Shown piece by piece: positions 2,351 to 5,017 of a DNA stretch of 5,602 nt (positions within the stretch are counted from its first letter, which is position 1; each line of letters begins with the position of its first letter). The position numbers were made by a program, and so were the translations under genes. A model generated the notes under the pieces. That model saw nothing but the letters and a program-made list of their open reading frames with translations, had not been told where the DNA came from and ran no database searches. Origin of the DNA: a virus (lineage: Duplodnaviria > Heunggongvirae > Uroviricota > Caudoviricetes); IMG/VR virus record IMGVR_UViG_2563366830_000004, positions 1-5,602 of that record. One strand, written 5' to 3'.

Positions 2351-2535
2351 TGTGCACATCCTTTTTGTATCGGACGTAAACGGGCCAGCATTGAAAGAAT
2401 GCATATTTTATTTAATAACTCCCGTTCGTGTTTTCTCTTGTTAATGGCATCTTCAGTAAATACAGGGTTACTGATAGTGACACCAATTTCAAAACAACCT
2501 TCAGACGTATTAACGTTTGGTAATAACGTTTCCAT
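2347..2535 (-). CDS. dicB: DicB cell-division inhibitor (MinC-targeting small protein), 62 aa
   Basis: ATG at 2535..2533 with SD GAGGA 7 nt upstream. Product METLLPNVNTSEGCFEIGVTISNPVFTEDAINKRKHERELLNKICILSMLARLRPIQKGCAQ, which closely matches my recollection of K-12 DicB (62 aa). DicF lies about 180 nt upstream on the same strand. Confidence 0.85.
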   Translation of the reverse strand: METLLPNVNTSEGCFEIGVTISNPVFTEDAINKRKHERELLNKICILSMLARLRPIQKGCAQ

Positions 2536-2713
2536 TATCGCGTCCTCAACAATGAATTTTGTGATGCAGTGCCTGGTGCCTCCAGGTGACGTTAACCAGT
2601 TAACAATTAACGCCGGGTTAGTTGATGCTCGTTACGCCCGTAAAATACCGCCTTACTGCTTTAACTGTTCCGCGTGCGCATAGCCGCATTCACCGCATCA
2701 CAAAATTCACTTT

Positions 2714-2770
2714 AAAAAGGGCGGCAGAGCAGTCACGGAGTAAAACTGATACCGCCAAATGTCACCAGAA
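2714..2770 (-). ncRNA. dicF: DicF small regulatory RNA (Hfq-dependent, ftsZ-targeting); 5' end approximate
   Basis: Reverse complement of 2714..2770 is TTCTGGTGACATTTGGCGGTATCAGTTTTACTCCGTGACTGCTCTGCCGCCCTTTTT. It ends in a GC-rich stem plus U5 (intrinsic terminator) and matches my recollection of E. coli DicF. Located between ydfC-like and dicB as in the K-12 dicB operon. The mature 5' end comes from processing and cannot be fixed from sequence. Confidence 0.75.
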
Positions 2771-2796
2771 AATTGATAACAGAGGGCGTTGTAGCG

Positions 2797-2833
2797 GGGT
2801 TGTCACTTAAGCGTATGGTCAACCTGACAACCC
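2797..2833 (-). other. Perfect 9-bp stem-loop (GGGTTGTCA / TGACAACCC, 19-nt loop) just 5' of DicF on the operon transcript; candidate RNA processing structure
   Basis: Inverted repeat read directly: arms at 2797..2805 and 2825..2833. No U-run follows on either strand, so it is not a terminator. Confidence 0.45.
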
Positions 2834-3106
2834 GGTGCATTTTCTGGAGCAATGGAGGAAACCCCAGCCATACTTACCGCCGCGCCATTTCGCGGAGTGC
2901 CACAACCGGAAGCGCACGGTCGAACTAAATTTAACGACACCGTACAGAGAGACCAATTTCGCCGTGCGCTTTCGCGTTATGCCCTGACTTTTCAGGGACA
3001 TATCCTTTCAGTAAACTGTCAGTGCCGGATGCTCACCCGTGTCCGGCGCACGCACTCCACCTGACCAGTGGAGAACTCCTTAATTACCAACCCTCAGGAG
3101 GGTGAA

Positions 3107-3385
3107 ATGGATAAAAAGCAAATTGAGGCCCTGCAATCTATTATTGAAGAACAAGATGAAGCTATCAGGATTCTTTCATATCGCACTGATATGATACTAA
3201 ATATGCTTTCTGCATTAACGGCTGCGCTTGGTGGTACAAAAACAAACGTATACCGCGAAGTTGTTATTCAACAGATAGATAAATTTGAAAAAACCATACC
3301 AGGTATTAATGCTCATCTTGCAGAACAAGAGAAAGACCATGCTCTTATGGCAATTTCTTCAGTAGCTCTCCCGAAAGTTGAGTAG
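3107..3385 (+). CDS. Hypothetical 92-aa acidic, predicted helical protein; AT-rich moron convergent to the early-left operon
   Basis: ATG at 3107 preceded by SD AGGAGG (3096..3101) with a 5-nt spacer; stop TAG at 3383..3385. Product MDKKQIEALQSIIEEQDEAIRILSYRTDMILNMLSALTAALGGTKTNVYREVVIQQIDKFEKTIPGINAHLAEQEKDHALMAISSVALPKVE. About 37% G+C by hand count, versus roughly 50% in the neighbouring large gene. The ORF-track start at 3068 (GTG) lies inside a hairpin and lacks an SD. Confidence 0.7.
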   Translation: MDKKQIEALQSIIEEQDEAIRILSYRTDMILNMLSALTAALGGTKTNVYREVVIQQIDKFEKTIPGINAHLAEQEKDHALMAISSVALPKVE

Positions 3386-3746
3386 TTTTAATTGTTGTTT
3401 TGAAATAATCACTGCTTTCACATTTGAGTGATTTCATGGCAATCCAAATGCGGGCCTCTGTGCCTGCATTTGGTTCCAGTTGCTGTAGACGTTTTGCGTC
3501 TTCCAAAAGTAAGGCGATAATGTGTTTCAGCTTCTCATCATTTGCTTGATTCTTGTTTTCAGGCGAATTCTGTCCGCCGAATAGGCGCTTCTCTTCATAC
3601 AGACCTATAAAGGCACGACGCACGTTACCGGATATAGTATCGATGGTTTCCTTTTCTACAGTACTCAGGTCAAGAGTCGCCAGTTGAGAGCGAACCACAT
3701 TCGCTGCCATTTCCTGGAATGGCATTGGTAAATCTTTAAATTCCAT
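3345..3746 (-). CDS. Hypothetical 133-aa protein, no recognisable motif; member of the early-left operon
   Basis: ATG at 3746..3744 with SD GAGG 6 nt upstream, 22 nt after the ydfC-like stop. Product MEFKDLPMPFQEMAANVVRSQLATLDLSTVEKETIDTISGNVRRAFIGLYEEKRLFGG... The last 41 nt overlap the 3' end of the plus-strand 92-aa gene. Confidence 0.7.
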   Translation of the reverse strand: MEFKDLPMPFQEMAANVVRSQLATLDLSTVEKETIDTISGNVRRAFIGLYEEKRLFGGQNSPENKNQANDEKLKHIIALLLEDAKRLQQLEPNAGTEARIWIAMKSLKCESSDYFKTTIKTTQLSGELLKKLP

Positions 3747-3768
3747 TATTAGCCTCGTTGGTTAGCTA

Positions 3769-3987
3769 TTAACGTGGGTATGTAACCATTCTGGCAATGC
3801 TTAATGCCGCTGCTTTTTCCAGCCTGGTGATATCCTGCTCCAGAGCGGACAGATTTTCAGCCTGCTTAGTCCTGGCTTCATTGGCCCATTTCAGATCCTG
3901 CACTGCATTAATTTTCTGGCGCATCCACTCATAAAGTTCATCATCGGTATAGTCTGGCGCGATGATGACGGGTTCTCGTTTCTGCAT
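3769..3987 (-). CDS. ydfC: YdfC-like small protein, 72 aa
   Basis: ATG at 3987..3985 with SD GAGGA 7 nt upstream. Product MQKREPVIIAPDYTDDELYEWMRQKINAVQDLKWANEARTKQAENLSALEQDITRLEKAAALSIARMVTYPR. Size and operon position match the third gene of the K-12 dicB operon (recollection). Confidence 0.75.
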   Translation of the reverse strand: MQKREPVIIAPDYTDDELYEWMRQKINAVQDLKWANEARTKQAENLSALEQDITRLEKAAALSIARMVTYPR

Positions 3988-4402: not shown

Positions 4403-4499
4403 CAGTATGGCGTATGATATTTTTGATTTGGTAACTATGTAAATGTTTTTTCAAGGGAAAAATATTAGTTATACAGCTGATTTGCAGAAGTTATGGCAC

Positions 4500-4529
4500 A
4501 AAAAAACCGACTAAGACGTCGGTTTTTTT
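4500..4529. terminator. Bidirectional rho-independent terminator between the repressor gene and the PL/OL region
   Basis: A7 (4500..4506), stem CCGAC / GTCGG (4507..4511 and 4518..4522) with a 6-nt loop, then T7 (4523..4529). Lies 26 nt downstream of the repressor stop codon. Confidence 0.8.
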
Positions 4530-4555
4530 GTTGTGGATGGGGTAGTGAGCGGTGG

Positions 4556-5017
4556 CTACTGGTTACGTTTCTTTAGTGCCAGCATGTTCTCGAAGGCTTC
4601 CTCGTAGAGCTTGTTTAGTCCACGTAGCTGGTTAAGGAGTTTGGCTTTTTCTGACGCAGGTAGAATCTCGAAGAGGTTAAGTAACTCTGCCTGTTCTTCA
4701 TTGACCAGCCTCCATCCTTTGCCTGAAAAGTTATCATCATAAGTATCTGATGATCTTACATAATTCATTAAGTCTTTAAGGTCTTCTCGAATGTCCTCTG
4801 GTTTTACCTTTAACAGAGCCGCAAATTTTAGCGCAGCGTCGGTATTTACCGGTATCTTGCCGTTCAGATACTGGCTAACGGTGCCTTGAGATTCGAATCC
4901 CAACAACTCAGCCGCCAGCTCTTGAGTCAGCTTCAGCTCTTTTTTTCTTGCATTCCATGCGGCTTTTAAATTCTTGCTCGCTTCTGGAGTTGCAATCACT
5001 TCGCGTGTTTTTTTCAT
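4556..5017 (-). CDS. Prophage repressor, CI/DicA-type HTH (XRE family), 153 aa, without a LexA-like S24 cleavage domain
   Basis: ATG at 5017..5015, stop TAG at 4556..4558. The N-terminal part KELKLTQELAAELLGFESQGTVSQYLNGKIPVNTDAALKFAALLKV has the lambda CI / P22 C2 HTH pattern. The C-terminal part (ELLNLFEILPASEKAKLLNQL...) resembles the DicA C-terminus as I recall it and has no Ser-Lys peptidase motifs. Sits upstream of the dicB-type operon and divergent from a Cro-like gene. Confidence 0.85.
   Translation of the reverse strand: MKKTREVIATPEASKNLKAAWNARKKELKLTQELAAELLGFESQGTVSQYLNGKIPVNTDAALKFAALLKVKPEDIREDLKDLMNYVRSSDTYDDNFSGKGWRLVNEEQAELLNLFEILPASEKAKLLNQLRGLNKLYEEAFENMLALKKRNQ

What the first reader, a model, noticed from the sequence alone, without database searches (positions are those of the whole stretch)
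3345..3473. Convergent 41-bp overlap of the 92-aa and 133-aa genes, with two hairpins just past the 92-aa stop
The two unknown genes overlap tail to tail at 3345..3385. Two strong inverted repeats (AATCACT-N13-AGTGATT at 3407..3433; CCAAATGC-N14-GCATTTGG at 3444..3473) sit inside the 3' part of the 133-aa coding sequence, immediately downstream of the 92-aa stop. This suggests reciprocal antisense or transcriptional-interference control between a lysogeny-expressed gene and the lytic operon, and that the pair was acquired or rearranged together.
Basis: seen in the sequence. Interest (0 to 1): 0.5.

Follow-up and report, generated by a model that had tools for sequence, protein, structure and literature searches.

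The report
Convergent prophage gene pair with hairpin
Two small prophage genes that face each other and overlap by 41 bases form a swappable cassette inside the DicF/DicB operon, and one of the two hairpins is a conserved RNA stem-loop that most likely marks where the reverse-facing gene's transcript ends; this is a new example of a known arrangement, not a new kind of system.

Summary
The 41-bp tail-to-tail overlap (3345-3385) is real. It has the same length in Salmonella copies that share only 71-73% protein identity. Both ORFs are genuine genes. Together they form a 657-bp cassette (about 3094-3750) inserted between ydfC and the dicF leader of a Qin/Rac-like prophage integrated at ompW. This is the slot that sieB occupies in Rac.

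Hairpin 1 (3407-3433) is no better than chance and is not conserved.

It is encoded by the most conserved peptide (PNAGTEARIW) of a YmfJ-family module. Synonymous variation is suppressed in its stem codons but free in the loop, and the changes that do occur keep pairing on the + strand.

In E. coli K-12 the homologous pair ymfI/ymfJ is a published convergent excludon. The published Rho-termination coordinate antisense to ymfJ falls on the second-to-last base of the homologous hairpin.

Best reading: hairpin 2 is a stem-loop without a U-tract that protects the 3' end of the 92-aa gene's Rho-terminated transcript. That transcript therefore runs antisense into the 133-aa gene. Regulatory interference is plausible but was not tested here. 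No promoter for the 92-aa gene was found.

The parts
3094..3750 (.). Two-gene cassette, present or absent relative to K-12 Qin. It lies between the ydfC stop codon and the conserved dicF leader.
   Evidence: Three-way alignment with K-12 Qin and the PPompW phage. 124 of 5426 genomes hold the whole cassette and about 3500 hold only the flanks.
3107..3385 (+). 92-aa gene of unknown function (phrog_18692), oriented against the operon. It is a positional analogue of sieB. The Shine-Dalgarno sequence AGGAGGG is at 3096-3102.
   Evidence: ORF list. RefSeq CDS WP_000358769.1. phrog_18692 at 8e-63. dN/dS of 0.08-0.24 at dS 0.67-0.89 against Salmonella copies. AlphaFold2 model with three helices, pLDDT 76, and no fold match.
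3345..3746 (-). 133-aa gene of the leftward operon. It is a fusion of an N-module (residues 1 to about 56, nt 3579-3746) and a YmfJ-family module (core residues 69-108, nt 3423-3542) with a cassette-specific tail.
   Evidence: PHROG matches split at residues 62/69. The AlphaFold2 model shows two helical parts joined by a low-confidence linker at residues 56-73. Free-standing versions of 67-71 aa exist in E. coli and Salmonella. The K-12 gene ymfJ is a homologue.
3345..3385 (.). 41-bp tail-to-tail coding overlap. Third codon positions of each frame face second positions of the other.
   Evidence: The overlap has the same length in Salmonella loci L059-L061 and L064. 35 of 41 bases are identical between the window and L059 (alignment).
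3444..3473 (+). Hairpin 2, a conserved stem-loop (CCAAATGCGGGC-CTCTGT-GCCTGCATTTGG). On the - strand it encodes P92-W101 (PNAGTEARIW). Proposed role: protective 3' stem-loop of the + strand transcript.
   Evidence: fold; synonymous variation; recoding; pair counts and energies across variants; K-12 data.
3407..3433 (.). Hairpin 1, a 7-bp inverted repeat at chance level. It is not conserved.
2771..3093 (-). Conserved leader upstream of dicF. In Qin it carries the RNase III processing region. On the + strand it is the only place a promoter for the 92-aa gene could lie.
   Evidence: Alignment with K-12 Qin. Processing described in PMC10448788. Weak + strand promoter candidate TTTTCA-17-TAAACT at 2989-3017.
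2719..2770 (-). DicF sRNA gene, downstream of the cassette in the same leftward operon.
   Evidence: Rfam RF00039, 77 bits, E = 2.5e-16.
3769..3987 (-). ydfC, the operon gene immediately upstream of the cassette.
   Evidence: RefSeq annotation of the identical region in strain 118UI.

Best explanation
The finding sits at the 3' junction of a two-gene accessory cassette in the leftward (dicBF, PL-like) early operon of a Qin/Rac-like lambdoid prophage. The 133-aa gene is read with the operon. The 92-aa gene is read against it, from the slot that sieB occupies in Rac and lambda. Their coding ends overlap by 41 bp.

Hairpin 2 is a selected RNA stem-loop written into the conserved core codons of the YmfJ-family module. 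It most likely acts on the + strand RNA, that is, on the 3' untranslated tail of the 92-aa mRNA. Transcription past the stop codon is ended by Rho. The stable stem-loop, which has no U-tract, then fixes and protects the 3' end against 3'-to-5' exonucleases.

As a result the 92-aa transcript is antisense to about the last 130 nt of the 133-aa gene. The pair therefore forms an excludon-type convergent unit lying across the only route from the dicB promoter to DicF and DicB.

What is shown: the genes, the cassette, the overlap, the hairpin's stability and its nucleotide-level conservation. What is inferred: the strand on which the hairpin acts and its role at the 3' end (from substitution patterns and from K-12 data on a homologue), and any regulatory effect (by analogy only). 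Hairpin 1 has no supported role.
For: Genes and cassette:
- define the genes and the cassette.
- dN/dS of the 92-aa gene is 0.08-0.24.
- The 41-bp overlap is the same in Salmonella.

Stability of hairpin 2:
- z = -5.7 on the + strand and -4.5 on the - strand.
- Only 0.5-0.6% of synonymous recodings of the same peptide fold as well on the + strand, against 1.5-4% on the - strand.

Conservation of hairpin 2:
- Across 22 distinct sequences from Escherichia, Salmonella, Citrobacter, Hafnia, Raoultella, Cronobacter and Aeromonas phages, synonymous diversity is 0-0.25 in six of the seven stem codons that can vary synonymously. The seventh, Ile28, is 0.56, and its ATT/ATC change keeps pairing on the + strand. 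Diversity is 0.44-0.67 in the loop codons and 0.24-0.79 in other four- and six-fold codons (Mann-Whitney p = 0.002, or p = 0.001 for four- and six-fold codons only; codon counts).

Strand:
- 96.8% of cells are paired on the + strand, and six pairs vary on one side while staying paired. On the - strand 92.4% are paired, with 15 broken cells.
- The + strand hairpin is the more stable in 16 of 18 variants, mean -19.2 against -14.6 kcal/mol.

Context:
- Nearly all hairpin-bearing loci have a convergent ORF whose stop lies 38-204 nt before the hairpin. These ORFs belong to at least five unrelated families.

Experimental data on the K-12 homologue:
- ymfI-ymfJ and sieB-ydaF are RNA-seq excludons (PMC12288877).
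- In the Rho-termination table of Adams et al. 2021, the best coordinate antisense to ymfJ is 1202011 on the + strand (Rho score 6.6, p = 1.3e-14). The homologous hairpin spans 1201983-1202012.

General principle:
Against: - There are no transcript data for this locus.
- No convincing promoter was found for the 92-aa gene. The cassette begins at the Shine-Dalgarno sequence, so any promoter must lie in the shared dicF leader.
- There are no double (compensatory) substitutions, so the covariation measures equal the shuffled controls.
- The strand asymmetry rests on few independent substitution events.
- The link between hairpin and convergent partner is confounded with phylogeny.
- The region downstream of the hairpin shows no C-over-G (rut-like) bias; the C/G ratio is 1.0-1.1.
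- The K-12 coordinate comes from scoring in 800-nt windows, in a homologue only 78% identical whose hairpin is weaker (-16 kcal/mol).
- The K-12 Term-seq table lists a 3' end at 1201911, after a different hairpin, and none at the conserved one.
- Unrelated cassettes in the same slot (PPompW, Rac sieB) have no comparable structure.
Confidence: 0.55

Rival explanations
1. Hairpin 2 works in the sense RNA, the leftward operon transcript. It could be a processing, pausing or stability element, or a nut/put-like signal, because in several phages the YmfJ-family gene is the first gene after the repressor.
For: The - strand hairpin is also stable (-17.1 kcal/mol, z = -4.5) and beats 96-98.5% of synonymous recodings. 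In Salmonella L059, Aeromonas phage pAEv1818 and Cronobacter phage phiES15 the module gene directly follows the repressor gene. The GGC-to-GGT variants keep pairing only on the - strand.
Against: 9 of 22 distinct sequences carry ATC at the Ile codon. This puts an A.C mismatch in the middle of the sense-strand stem and lowers it to -9.6 to -13.5 kcal/mol, while the + strand keeps a G.U pair. The distance from the promoter is not fixed: about 1 kb in the window, a few hundred nt elsewhere. A strong hairpin inside an ORF would be melted by translating ribosomes.
Confidence: 0.15
2. Hairpin 2 has no function of its own. The peptide PNAGTEARIW is quasi-palindromic at the codon level, and the nucleotide identity reflects recent recombination at a conserved linker between mosaic phage modules.
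For: Random synonymous recodings of the peptide already average -8 to -9.6 kcal/mol. No compensatory double changes were seen. The core sits right at the junction between conserved and variable sequence and shows mosaic identity patterns; for example L064 is nearly identical to the window only across the core.
Against: Within the same 30 nt, the loop third positions and the wobble-compatible Ile position vary freely (0.44-0.67), while the other stem third positions are nearly frozen (0-0.25). A recent sweep would freeze all of them. The pattern holds across genera as distant as Aeromonas. A measured Rho-termination coordinate coincides with the K-12 homologue.
Confidence: 0.12
3. The two proteins form a functional pair, for example a toxin and antidote or a two-component defence or exclusion module. 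On this view the overlap only reflects tight genetic linkage.
For: The 92-aa gene and the YmfJ-type module are inherited together in E. coli and Salmonella with the same 41-bp overlap. The tail of the module protein changes with the partner gene.
Against: The module pairs with at least five unrelated partner families and occurs alone in distant relatives. There are no PADLOC or Pfam matches. The 92-aa gene is frameshifted in 5 of 56 viral contigs while the 133-aa gene stays intact. The co-varying tails are largely explained by the physical overlap of the two reading frames.
Confidence: 0.1
4. The palindrome acts at the DNA level, either as a binding site for a dimeric protein or as a structure-specific recombination site that mediates exchange of the neighbouring cassette.
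For: It is a 30-bp near-perfect palindrome within about 10-20 nt of the junction between conserved and variable sequence. The slot holds many alternative cassettes.
Against: The common ATT-to-ATC change breaks the two-fold symmetry in 9 of 22 sequences yet is tolerated. No second copy or matching site exists at the other cassette boundary. No recombinase is encoded nearby. Homologous recombination between conserved flanks is enough to explain the exchange.
Confidence: 0.06
5. One or both hairpins form a classical intrinsic (bidirectional) terminator separating the two convergent transcripts.
For: Hairpin 2 has a G+C-containing 12-bp stem placed between two convergent stop codons.
Against: There is no U-tract after the stem on either strand. 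The terminator scan flags neither hairpin. The hairpins lie inside the 133-aa coding sequence, so a - strand terminator here would truncate the operon before DicF and DicB.
Confidence: 0.02

Closest known systems
ymfI / ymfJ of the e14 cryptic prophage (E. coli K-12)
   Same: ymfJ is a sequence homologue of the C-terminal module of the 133-aa gene: 78% nucleotide identity over 97 nt, including the hairpin. It is the first leftward gene after the repressor, and it converges on and overlaps a reverse-oriented small gene by 63 bp. The pair is a published RNA-seq excludon. The + strand RNA ends in a Rho-dependent way at the hairpin.
   Different: The partner YmfI is unrelated to the 92-aa protein (for a member of the YmfI-like family). 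ymfJ is free-standing (102 aa), not fused to an N-module. The K-12 hairpin has one mismatch (Trp replaced by Leu) and is weaker. e14 has no dicF or dicB downstream.
sieB in Rac (sieB/ydaF) and in lambda (sieB/N)
   Same: Same slot and geometry. A gene read against the early-left operon lies tail-to-tail with the preceding operon gene: a 4-bp overlap in Rac, abutting in lambda. It sits between a DUF1391-type gene and an sRNA followed by a cell-division inhibitor (KilS-kilR in Rac, DicF-dicB here). sieB-ydaF is also listed as an excludon.
   Different: No sequence or fold similarity between the 92-aa protein and SieB was detected. The overlap here is 41 bp. No comparable hairpin lies downstream of sieB in Rac (z = -0.7).
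P22 sieB / sas antisense switch
   Same: A reverse-oriented exclusion gene in the PL operon whose mRNA is paired by RNA made from the lytic promoter (reviewed in PMC12197685 and PMC7067206).
   Different: sas changes which start codon is used inside sieB. Nothing comparable was looked for or seen here. No defined antisense sRNA is known at this locus.
Protective 3' stem-loops of Rho-dependent transcripts (Dar and Sorek 2018)
   Same: A stable stem-loop without a U-tract just upstream of the steady-state 3' end. Hairpin 2 has these sequence features, and its K-12 homologue sits at a Rho-termination coordinate.
   Different: Here the stem-loop is embedded in the coding sequence of the opposing gene and is conserved across genera together with that gene's core peptide. 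No rut-like C-rich tract is evident downstream.
Convergent excludons (overlapping 3' ends, transcriptional interference, RNase III cleavage)
   Same: Convergent genes whose transcripts must overlap; here even the ORFs overlap.
   Different: Opposing expression and RNase III cleavage, which define an excludon in function, have not been measured for this pair.

Membership tests
Intrinsic (Rho-independent) terminator | G+C-rich stem-loop | tested here: met
   Hairpin 2 has a 12-bp stem and folds at -20.1 kcal/mol. Hairpin 1 is AT-rich and folds at about -6 kcal/mol.
Intrinsic (Rho-independent) terminator | Run of U immediately 3' of the stem | tested here: not met
   The + strand tail is UUCCAGUUGCUG and the - strand tail is AUUGCCAUGAAA. 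The terminator scan flags neither hairpin.
Protective 3' stem-loop of a Rho-dependent transcript | Stable stem-loop not followed by a U-rich tract | tested here: met
   The definition comes from PMC6061677.
Protective 3' stem-loop of a Rho-dependent transcript | Steady-state RNA 3' end immediately downstream, sensitive to Rho inhibition | not testable with these tools
   There are no data for this locus. In the K-12 homologue the best Rho-score coordinate, 1202011 (+), lies on the second-to-last base of the hairpin at 1201983-1202012.
Protective 3' stem-loop of a Rho-dependent transcript | C-rich, G-poor rut region just downstream | tested here: inconclusive
   The C/G ratio is 1.0-1.1 over 3474-3600 on the + strand.
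Convergent excludon | Convergent neighbouring genes whose transcription units overlap | tested here: inconclusive
   The ORFs overlap by 41 bp, so if both are transcribed the transcripts must overlap. Transcription of the 92-aa gene has not been shown. The homologous and analogous K-12 pairs are listed as excludons.
Convergent excludon | Mutually exclusive expression, RNase III cleavage of the duplex | not testable with these tools
   Requires RNA-seq, short-RNA or dsRNA data from a carrier strain.
SieB superinfection-exclusion gene | Position and orientation: reverse-oriented gene in the early-left operon, tail-to-tail with the upstream operon gene | tested here: met
   Comparison with Rac and lambda.
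SieB superinfection-exclusion gene | Sequence or fold homology to SieB | tested here: not met
   No Pfam match for the 92-aa protein at E <= 1 other than noise. No PADLOC match. No Foldseek match in the PDB at E <= 0.001.
YmfJ-family early-left protein (C-module of the 133-aa gene) | Conserved core of about 40 aa, LKH(I/V)IALLLEDAKRLQQ(L/V)EPNAGTEARIW | tested here: met
   Protein alignment. 83 cluster representatives at E <= 1e-3, with the core at the N-terminus of proteins of 40-150 aa. Match to K-12 ymfJ.
Toxin-antitoxin or known defence system | Match to a known toxin, antitoxin or defence protein model | tested here: not met
   PADLOC gave 0 families for the 92-aa protein and only noise for the 133-aa protein. 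Pfam gave only noise.
Known RNA family (Rfam) | Covariance-model match over 3386-3480 | tested here: not met
   cmscan at E <= 1 returns nothing in this interval. Only DicF and weak hits appear elsewhere in the window.

The most novel reading that the evidence does not exclude
The YmfJ-family core, with its embedded hairpin, may be a constant 'docking end' for a hypervariable slot of reverse-oriented accessory genes in enterobacterial and Aeromonas temperate phages. On this reading, any gene that recombines into the slot inherits a ready-made Rho-dependent 3' end inside the opposing early gene. It then automatically forms an antisense (excludon) barrier across the route from the early-left promoter to the toxic DicF/DicB or Kil functions. 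The hairpin would thus be selected both as an RNA 3'-end element and as the homology anchor for cassette exchange.
Probability: 0.2. Interest if true: 0.6.

Novelty: new member of a known kind. Interest (0 to 1): 0.35.

Why it matters
In this prophage, transcription from the early-left promoter can reach the DicF sRNA and the DicB division inhibitor only by reading through a gene that is transcribed the other way. If the reverse gene is active in the lysogen, its transcript could limit leaky expression of these toxic products or change how DicF is processed.

The analysis also gives a clean example of an RNA stem-loop conserved inside a coding sequence for the benefit of the opposite strand. 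It identifies a recombination slot where many unrelated small accessory genes are exchanged, which is a good place to look for new exclusion or defence genes.

All of this can be tested with existing strains (EPEC E2348/69, EAEC 042, K-12 e14).

Tried and rejected
- Searching one genome per species for relatives of the 92-aa protein found none. The family is confined to E. coli and a few Salmonella: 22 clusters and 56 near-identical viral contigs.
- Pfam, PHROGs function labels and PADLOC gave no function for either protein.
- The AlphaFold2 model of the 92-aa protein (pLDDT 76) has no PDB fold match.
- The intrinsic-terminator reading was rejected because there is no U-tract.
- Hairpin 1 was rejected as a feature. 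The equivalent intervals in Salmonella show no significant structure (z = +0.7 and -0.7).
- Covariation was sought but not found: 0 pairs changed on both sides. The support for the hairpin is suppressed synonymous variation, not compensatory change.
- A promoter for the 92-aa gene was sought. None scores at least 9 of 12, and only 8-of-12 candidates exist.
- A comparable hairpin downstream of other reverse-oriented genes in this slot (the PPompW 77-aa gene, Rac sieB) was not found. Lambda sieB shows only modest structure (z = -2.4).
- A rut-like composition downstream of the hairpin was not evident.
- Supplementary tables of ExcludonFinder and of Dar and Sorek were not available as text.
- The preprint on Pas sRNAs does not mention this locus.
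Full report
**Context.** The window is the early-left region of a lambdoid prophage of the Qin/Rac type. It is 100% identical over 2950-3800 to a prophage next to ompW in E. coli 118UI and many other strains.

On the - strand, right to left, lie these features:
- a DicA-like repressor (4556-5017);
- a DUF1391/ydfA-like gene;
- ydfB;
- ydfC (3769-3987);
- the 133-aa gene (3345-3746);
- the DicF sRNA (2719-2770; Rfam 77 bits);
- dicB (2347-2535);
- a DUF1482 gene;
- a RecE-like exonuclease.

The 92-aa gene (3107-3385) is the only + strand gene inside this operon. In K-12 Qin, DicF is cut out of the polycistronic transcript that starts at the dicB promoter upstream of ydfA (PMC10448788). Here, therefore, that transcript has to cross the 133-aa gene and run antisense through the 92-aa gene before it reaches dicF and dicB.

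**Checking the observation.**
- The overlap is exactly 3345-3385, 41 bp, and RefSeq annotates both genes the same way.
- Hairpin 2 is better than described. It extends to 12-nt arms with a 6-nt loop. The RNA energy is -20.1 kcal/mol on the + strand (z = -5.7) and -17.1 on the - strand (z = -4.5).
- Hairpin 1 is ordinary: about -6 kcal/mol and z = -0.55, or -11.3 kcal/mol and z = -1.3 when extended. About 6.6 perfect 7-bp inverted repeats are expected by chance in a window of this size and composition.
- Neither hairpin is followed by a T-run, and the terminator scan flags neither.

**The pair is a cassette.**
- Aligned with K-12 Qin, the ydfC end and the 340-nt dicF leader are collinear. The window has an extra 657 bp (about 3094-3750). 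It runs from the Shine-Dalgarno sequence of the 92-aa gene to the start codon of the 133-aa gene.
- Only 124 of 5426 complete E. coli genomes carry it, whereas about 3500 carry the flanks.
- PPompW/Stx phages carry a different convergent pair (77 aa on +, 135 aa on -, 23-bp overlap) at the same place. Homology to the window breaks exactly at the + gene's start codon and again inside the - gene at about codon 50.
- In K-12 Rac the same relative position holds sieB, which converges on ydaF with a 4-bp overlap and is followed by the sRNA KilS and kilR. In lambda, sieB abuts N tail-to-tail.
- The 92-aa gene is therefore a positional analogue of sieB, with no detectable homology to it.

**Both ORFs are real genes.**
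- The 92-aa family is narrow: 22 clusters, from E. coli and a few Salmonella. It is under purifying selection, with dN/dS of 0.08-0.24 at dS 0.67-0.89 between the E. coli and Salmonella copies.
- Its model is a three-helix protein (pLDDT 76) with no structural match.
- It is frameshifted by a +1 T at 3173 in 5 of 56 viral contigs, as expected for a dispensable accessory gene.
- The 133-aa protein is a fusion. Residues 1 to about 56 form a module shared with many alleles. Residues 69-108 are the N-terminal core of a separate family of small proteins. The AlphaFold2 model shows two helical parts joined by a low-confidence linker.
- Free-standing versions of 67-71 aa occur with the same 92/93-aa partner in E. 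coli and Salmonella. The overlap there is again exactly 41 bp, and 35 of 41 overlap bases are identical between the window and L059.
- The family has 83 representatives at 50% identity. The 40-aa core sits at the N-terminus and the tails are highly variable.
- Its K-12 member is ymfJ of prophage e14.

**Hairpin 2 is a selected structure.** It is encoded by codons P92-W101 (PNAGTEARIW), the most conserved peptide of the family.
- The peptide itself favours pairing: synonymous recodings average -8 to -9.6 kcal/mol. Even so, only 0.5-0.6% of recodings reach the native + strand energy, and 1.5-4% reach the native - strand energy.
- I collected 22 distinct sequences of the Trp-containing subfamily from Escherichia, Shigella, Salmonella, Citrobacter, Hafnia, Raoultella, Lelliottia, Cronobacter phage phiES15 and Aeromonas phage pAEv1818.
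- Synonymous diversity is 0-0.25 at the stem codons Pro, Asn, Ala, Gly, Ala and Arg. It is 0.67 and 0.44 at the two loop codons, and 0.24-0.79 at other four- and six-fold codons of the same genes (codon counts). Mann-Whitney gives p = 0.002, or p = 0.001 for four- and six-fold codons only.
- The one stem codon that varies freely, Ile ATT/ATC, changes an A-U pair to G.U on the + strand but to A.C on the - strand.
- Counted over 18 distinct 48-mers, 96.8% of cells pair on the + strand, and six pairs vary on one side while staying paired. On the - strand 92.4% pair, with 15 broken cells.
- The + strand hairpin is the more stable in 16 of 18 variants, mean -19.2 against -14.6 kcal/mol.
- There are no double compensatory changes, so the classical covariation measures are uninformative. 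The strand preference rests on few independent events.
- More distant relatives without the Trp have no hairpin.

**Genomic association.** In nearly every hairpin-bearing locus, a convergent ORF overlaps the 3' end of the module gene by 4-63 bp, or abuts it. Its stop codon lies 38-204 nt before the hairpin. These partners belong to at least five unrelated families:
- the 92-aa family;
- a YmfI-like family of about 95 aa;
- a zinc-ribbon protein;
- ORFs of 81 and 82 aa.

The PPompW 77-aa gene is a further partner type in the same slot, but its partner gene lacks the YmfJ core and the hairpin. Most distant relatives that lack the hairpin also lack a convergent partner. This association is confounded with phylogeny.

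**Experimental evidence from the K-12 homologue.**
- ymfI (1201497-1201838, +) and ymfJ (1201776-1202084, -) overlap by 63 bp.
- ExcludonFinder lists ymfI-ymfJ, and also sieB-ydaF, among the 165 convergent excludons seen in at least half of 58 MG1655 RNA-seq data sets (PMC12288877).
- The homologous hairpin spans 1201983-1202012 and folds at -16.2 kcal/mol on the + strand (z = -3.1).
- In Adams et al. 2021 (PMC7815308), the table of Rho-termination regions gives 1202011 on the + strand, antisense to ymfJ. Reads upstream/downstream are 68/21 without bicyclomycin and 181/367 with it. The Rho score is 6.6 and p = 1.3e-14. That coordinate is the second-to-last base of the hairpin.
- Their Term-seq table also lists a + strand 3' end at 1201911, three bases after another stable hairpin (-22.7 kcal/mol) in the variable part.
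- Hairpin 2 fits this class in its sequence features. Its K-12 homologue also fits in position.

**Mechanism proposed.**
- Shown: a cassette of two real genes with a conserved 41-bp overlap, and a stable stem-loop conserved at the nucleotide level, 59 nt past the 92-aa stop codon.
- Inferred (confidence about 0.5): the stem-loop acts in the + strand RNA as the protective 3' end of the Rho-terminated 92-aa transcript. That transcript then overlaps the last 130 nt or so of the 133-aa gene in antisense.
- Speculative (about 0.3): this convergent transcription dampens or reshapes expression of the operon, including DicF and DicB, by polymerase collision or RNase III cleavage. Precedents are excludons in general and the P22 sieB/sas pair.

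**Weak points.**
- No promoter for the 92-aa gene was found.
- There is no rut-like composition downstream of the hairpin.
- There are no transcript data for this locus.

**Verdict.** The feature is a new member of a known kind: a sieB-slot, excludon-type convergent pair. The modest new element is the hairpin embedded in, and conserved with, the YmfJ-family core next to a slot of exchangeable reverse-oriented genes. Rfam has no family for it, and the literature searches made here found no description of it.

Noticed in passing
window 2719-2770 (-) and leader 2771-3093: A full-length DicF sRNA gene (Rfam 77 bits) with the conserved 340-nt leader that carries the RNase III processing region in Qin. 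The cassette sits between ydfC and this leader, so DicF and DicB can be made from the dicB promoter only by transcribing antisense through the 92-aa gene.
   Followed up: partly
window 2503-2721 (-); L066 2653-2838 (+): A weak STnc100-like match (31 bits, below the gathering score of 47) lies between dicF and dicB. A stronger one (40.6 bits) lies at the equivalent place upstream of kil in Cronobacter phage phiES15. A 2026 preprint relates STnc100 to the PasD sRNAs of EPEC prophages.
   Followed up: partly
window 5359-5602: The cro/YdaS-like ORF ends in a TGA that appears to belong to the terminal repeat of an IS3-family element (TGAACCGCCCCGGG...). The C-terminus of a transposase is encoded on the - strand up to the window edge. 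In strain 118UI the YdaS-family gene is longer (276 nt) and is followed by ydaT, so this copy of the prophage seems to be interrupted just right of cro.
   Followed up: no
window 4498-4531: A near-perfect hairpin flanked by A- and T-runs (AAAAAAACCGAC...GTCGGTTTTTTT) lies just downstream of the repressor gene. It looks like a bidirectional intrinsic terminator separating the repressor gene from the early-left promoter region (promoter-like sites at 4443-4414 and 4402-4374).
   Followed up: no
window 3093-3107 versus L002 3134-3148: The alternative + strand genes of the window (92 aa) and of the PPompW phages (77 aa) share the same upstream sequence and Shine-Dalgarno motif. Homology breaks exactly at the start codon, which suggests that different genes are plugged into one expression signal.
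   Followed up: partly
window 3170-3173; L052-L056: 5 of 56 related viral contigs carry a +1 T insertion in a short T-run. It truncates the 92-aa protein after 27 residues, while the 133-aa gene and hairpin 2 remain intact.
   Followed up: yes
L059 2734-2782 (-): The Salmonella prophages that carry the 93-aa/71-aa pair also have a DicF-like sequence (36 bits, below the gathering score) just downstream. The order module gene, reverse gene, sRNA is therefore conserved across genera.
   Followed up: partly
L065 2241-2522, L066 2235-2522, L075 1626-1913, L079 1644-1931, L168 97-438 (ymfI): A second, widespread family of convergent partner proteins of about 95 aa (N-terminus like F-VRVELRNSE-ADY--LHEKM; the more divergent K-12 YmfI appears to belong to it). 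It has no Pfam match and occurs next to YmfJ-family genes in Aeromonas, Cronobacter, Hafnia, Raoultella and E. coli.
   Followed up: no
L168 465-511 (NC_000913.3 1201865-1201911): In K-12 e14 a strong hairpin (-22.7 kcal/mol) lies between the ymfI stop codon and the conserved hairpin. A published Term-seq 3' end lies 3 nt after it. This is the position that the weak hairpin 1 occupies in the window.
   Followed up: partly
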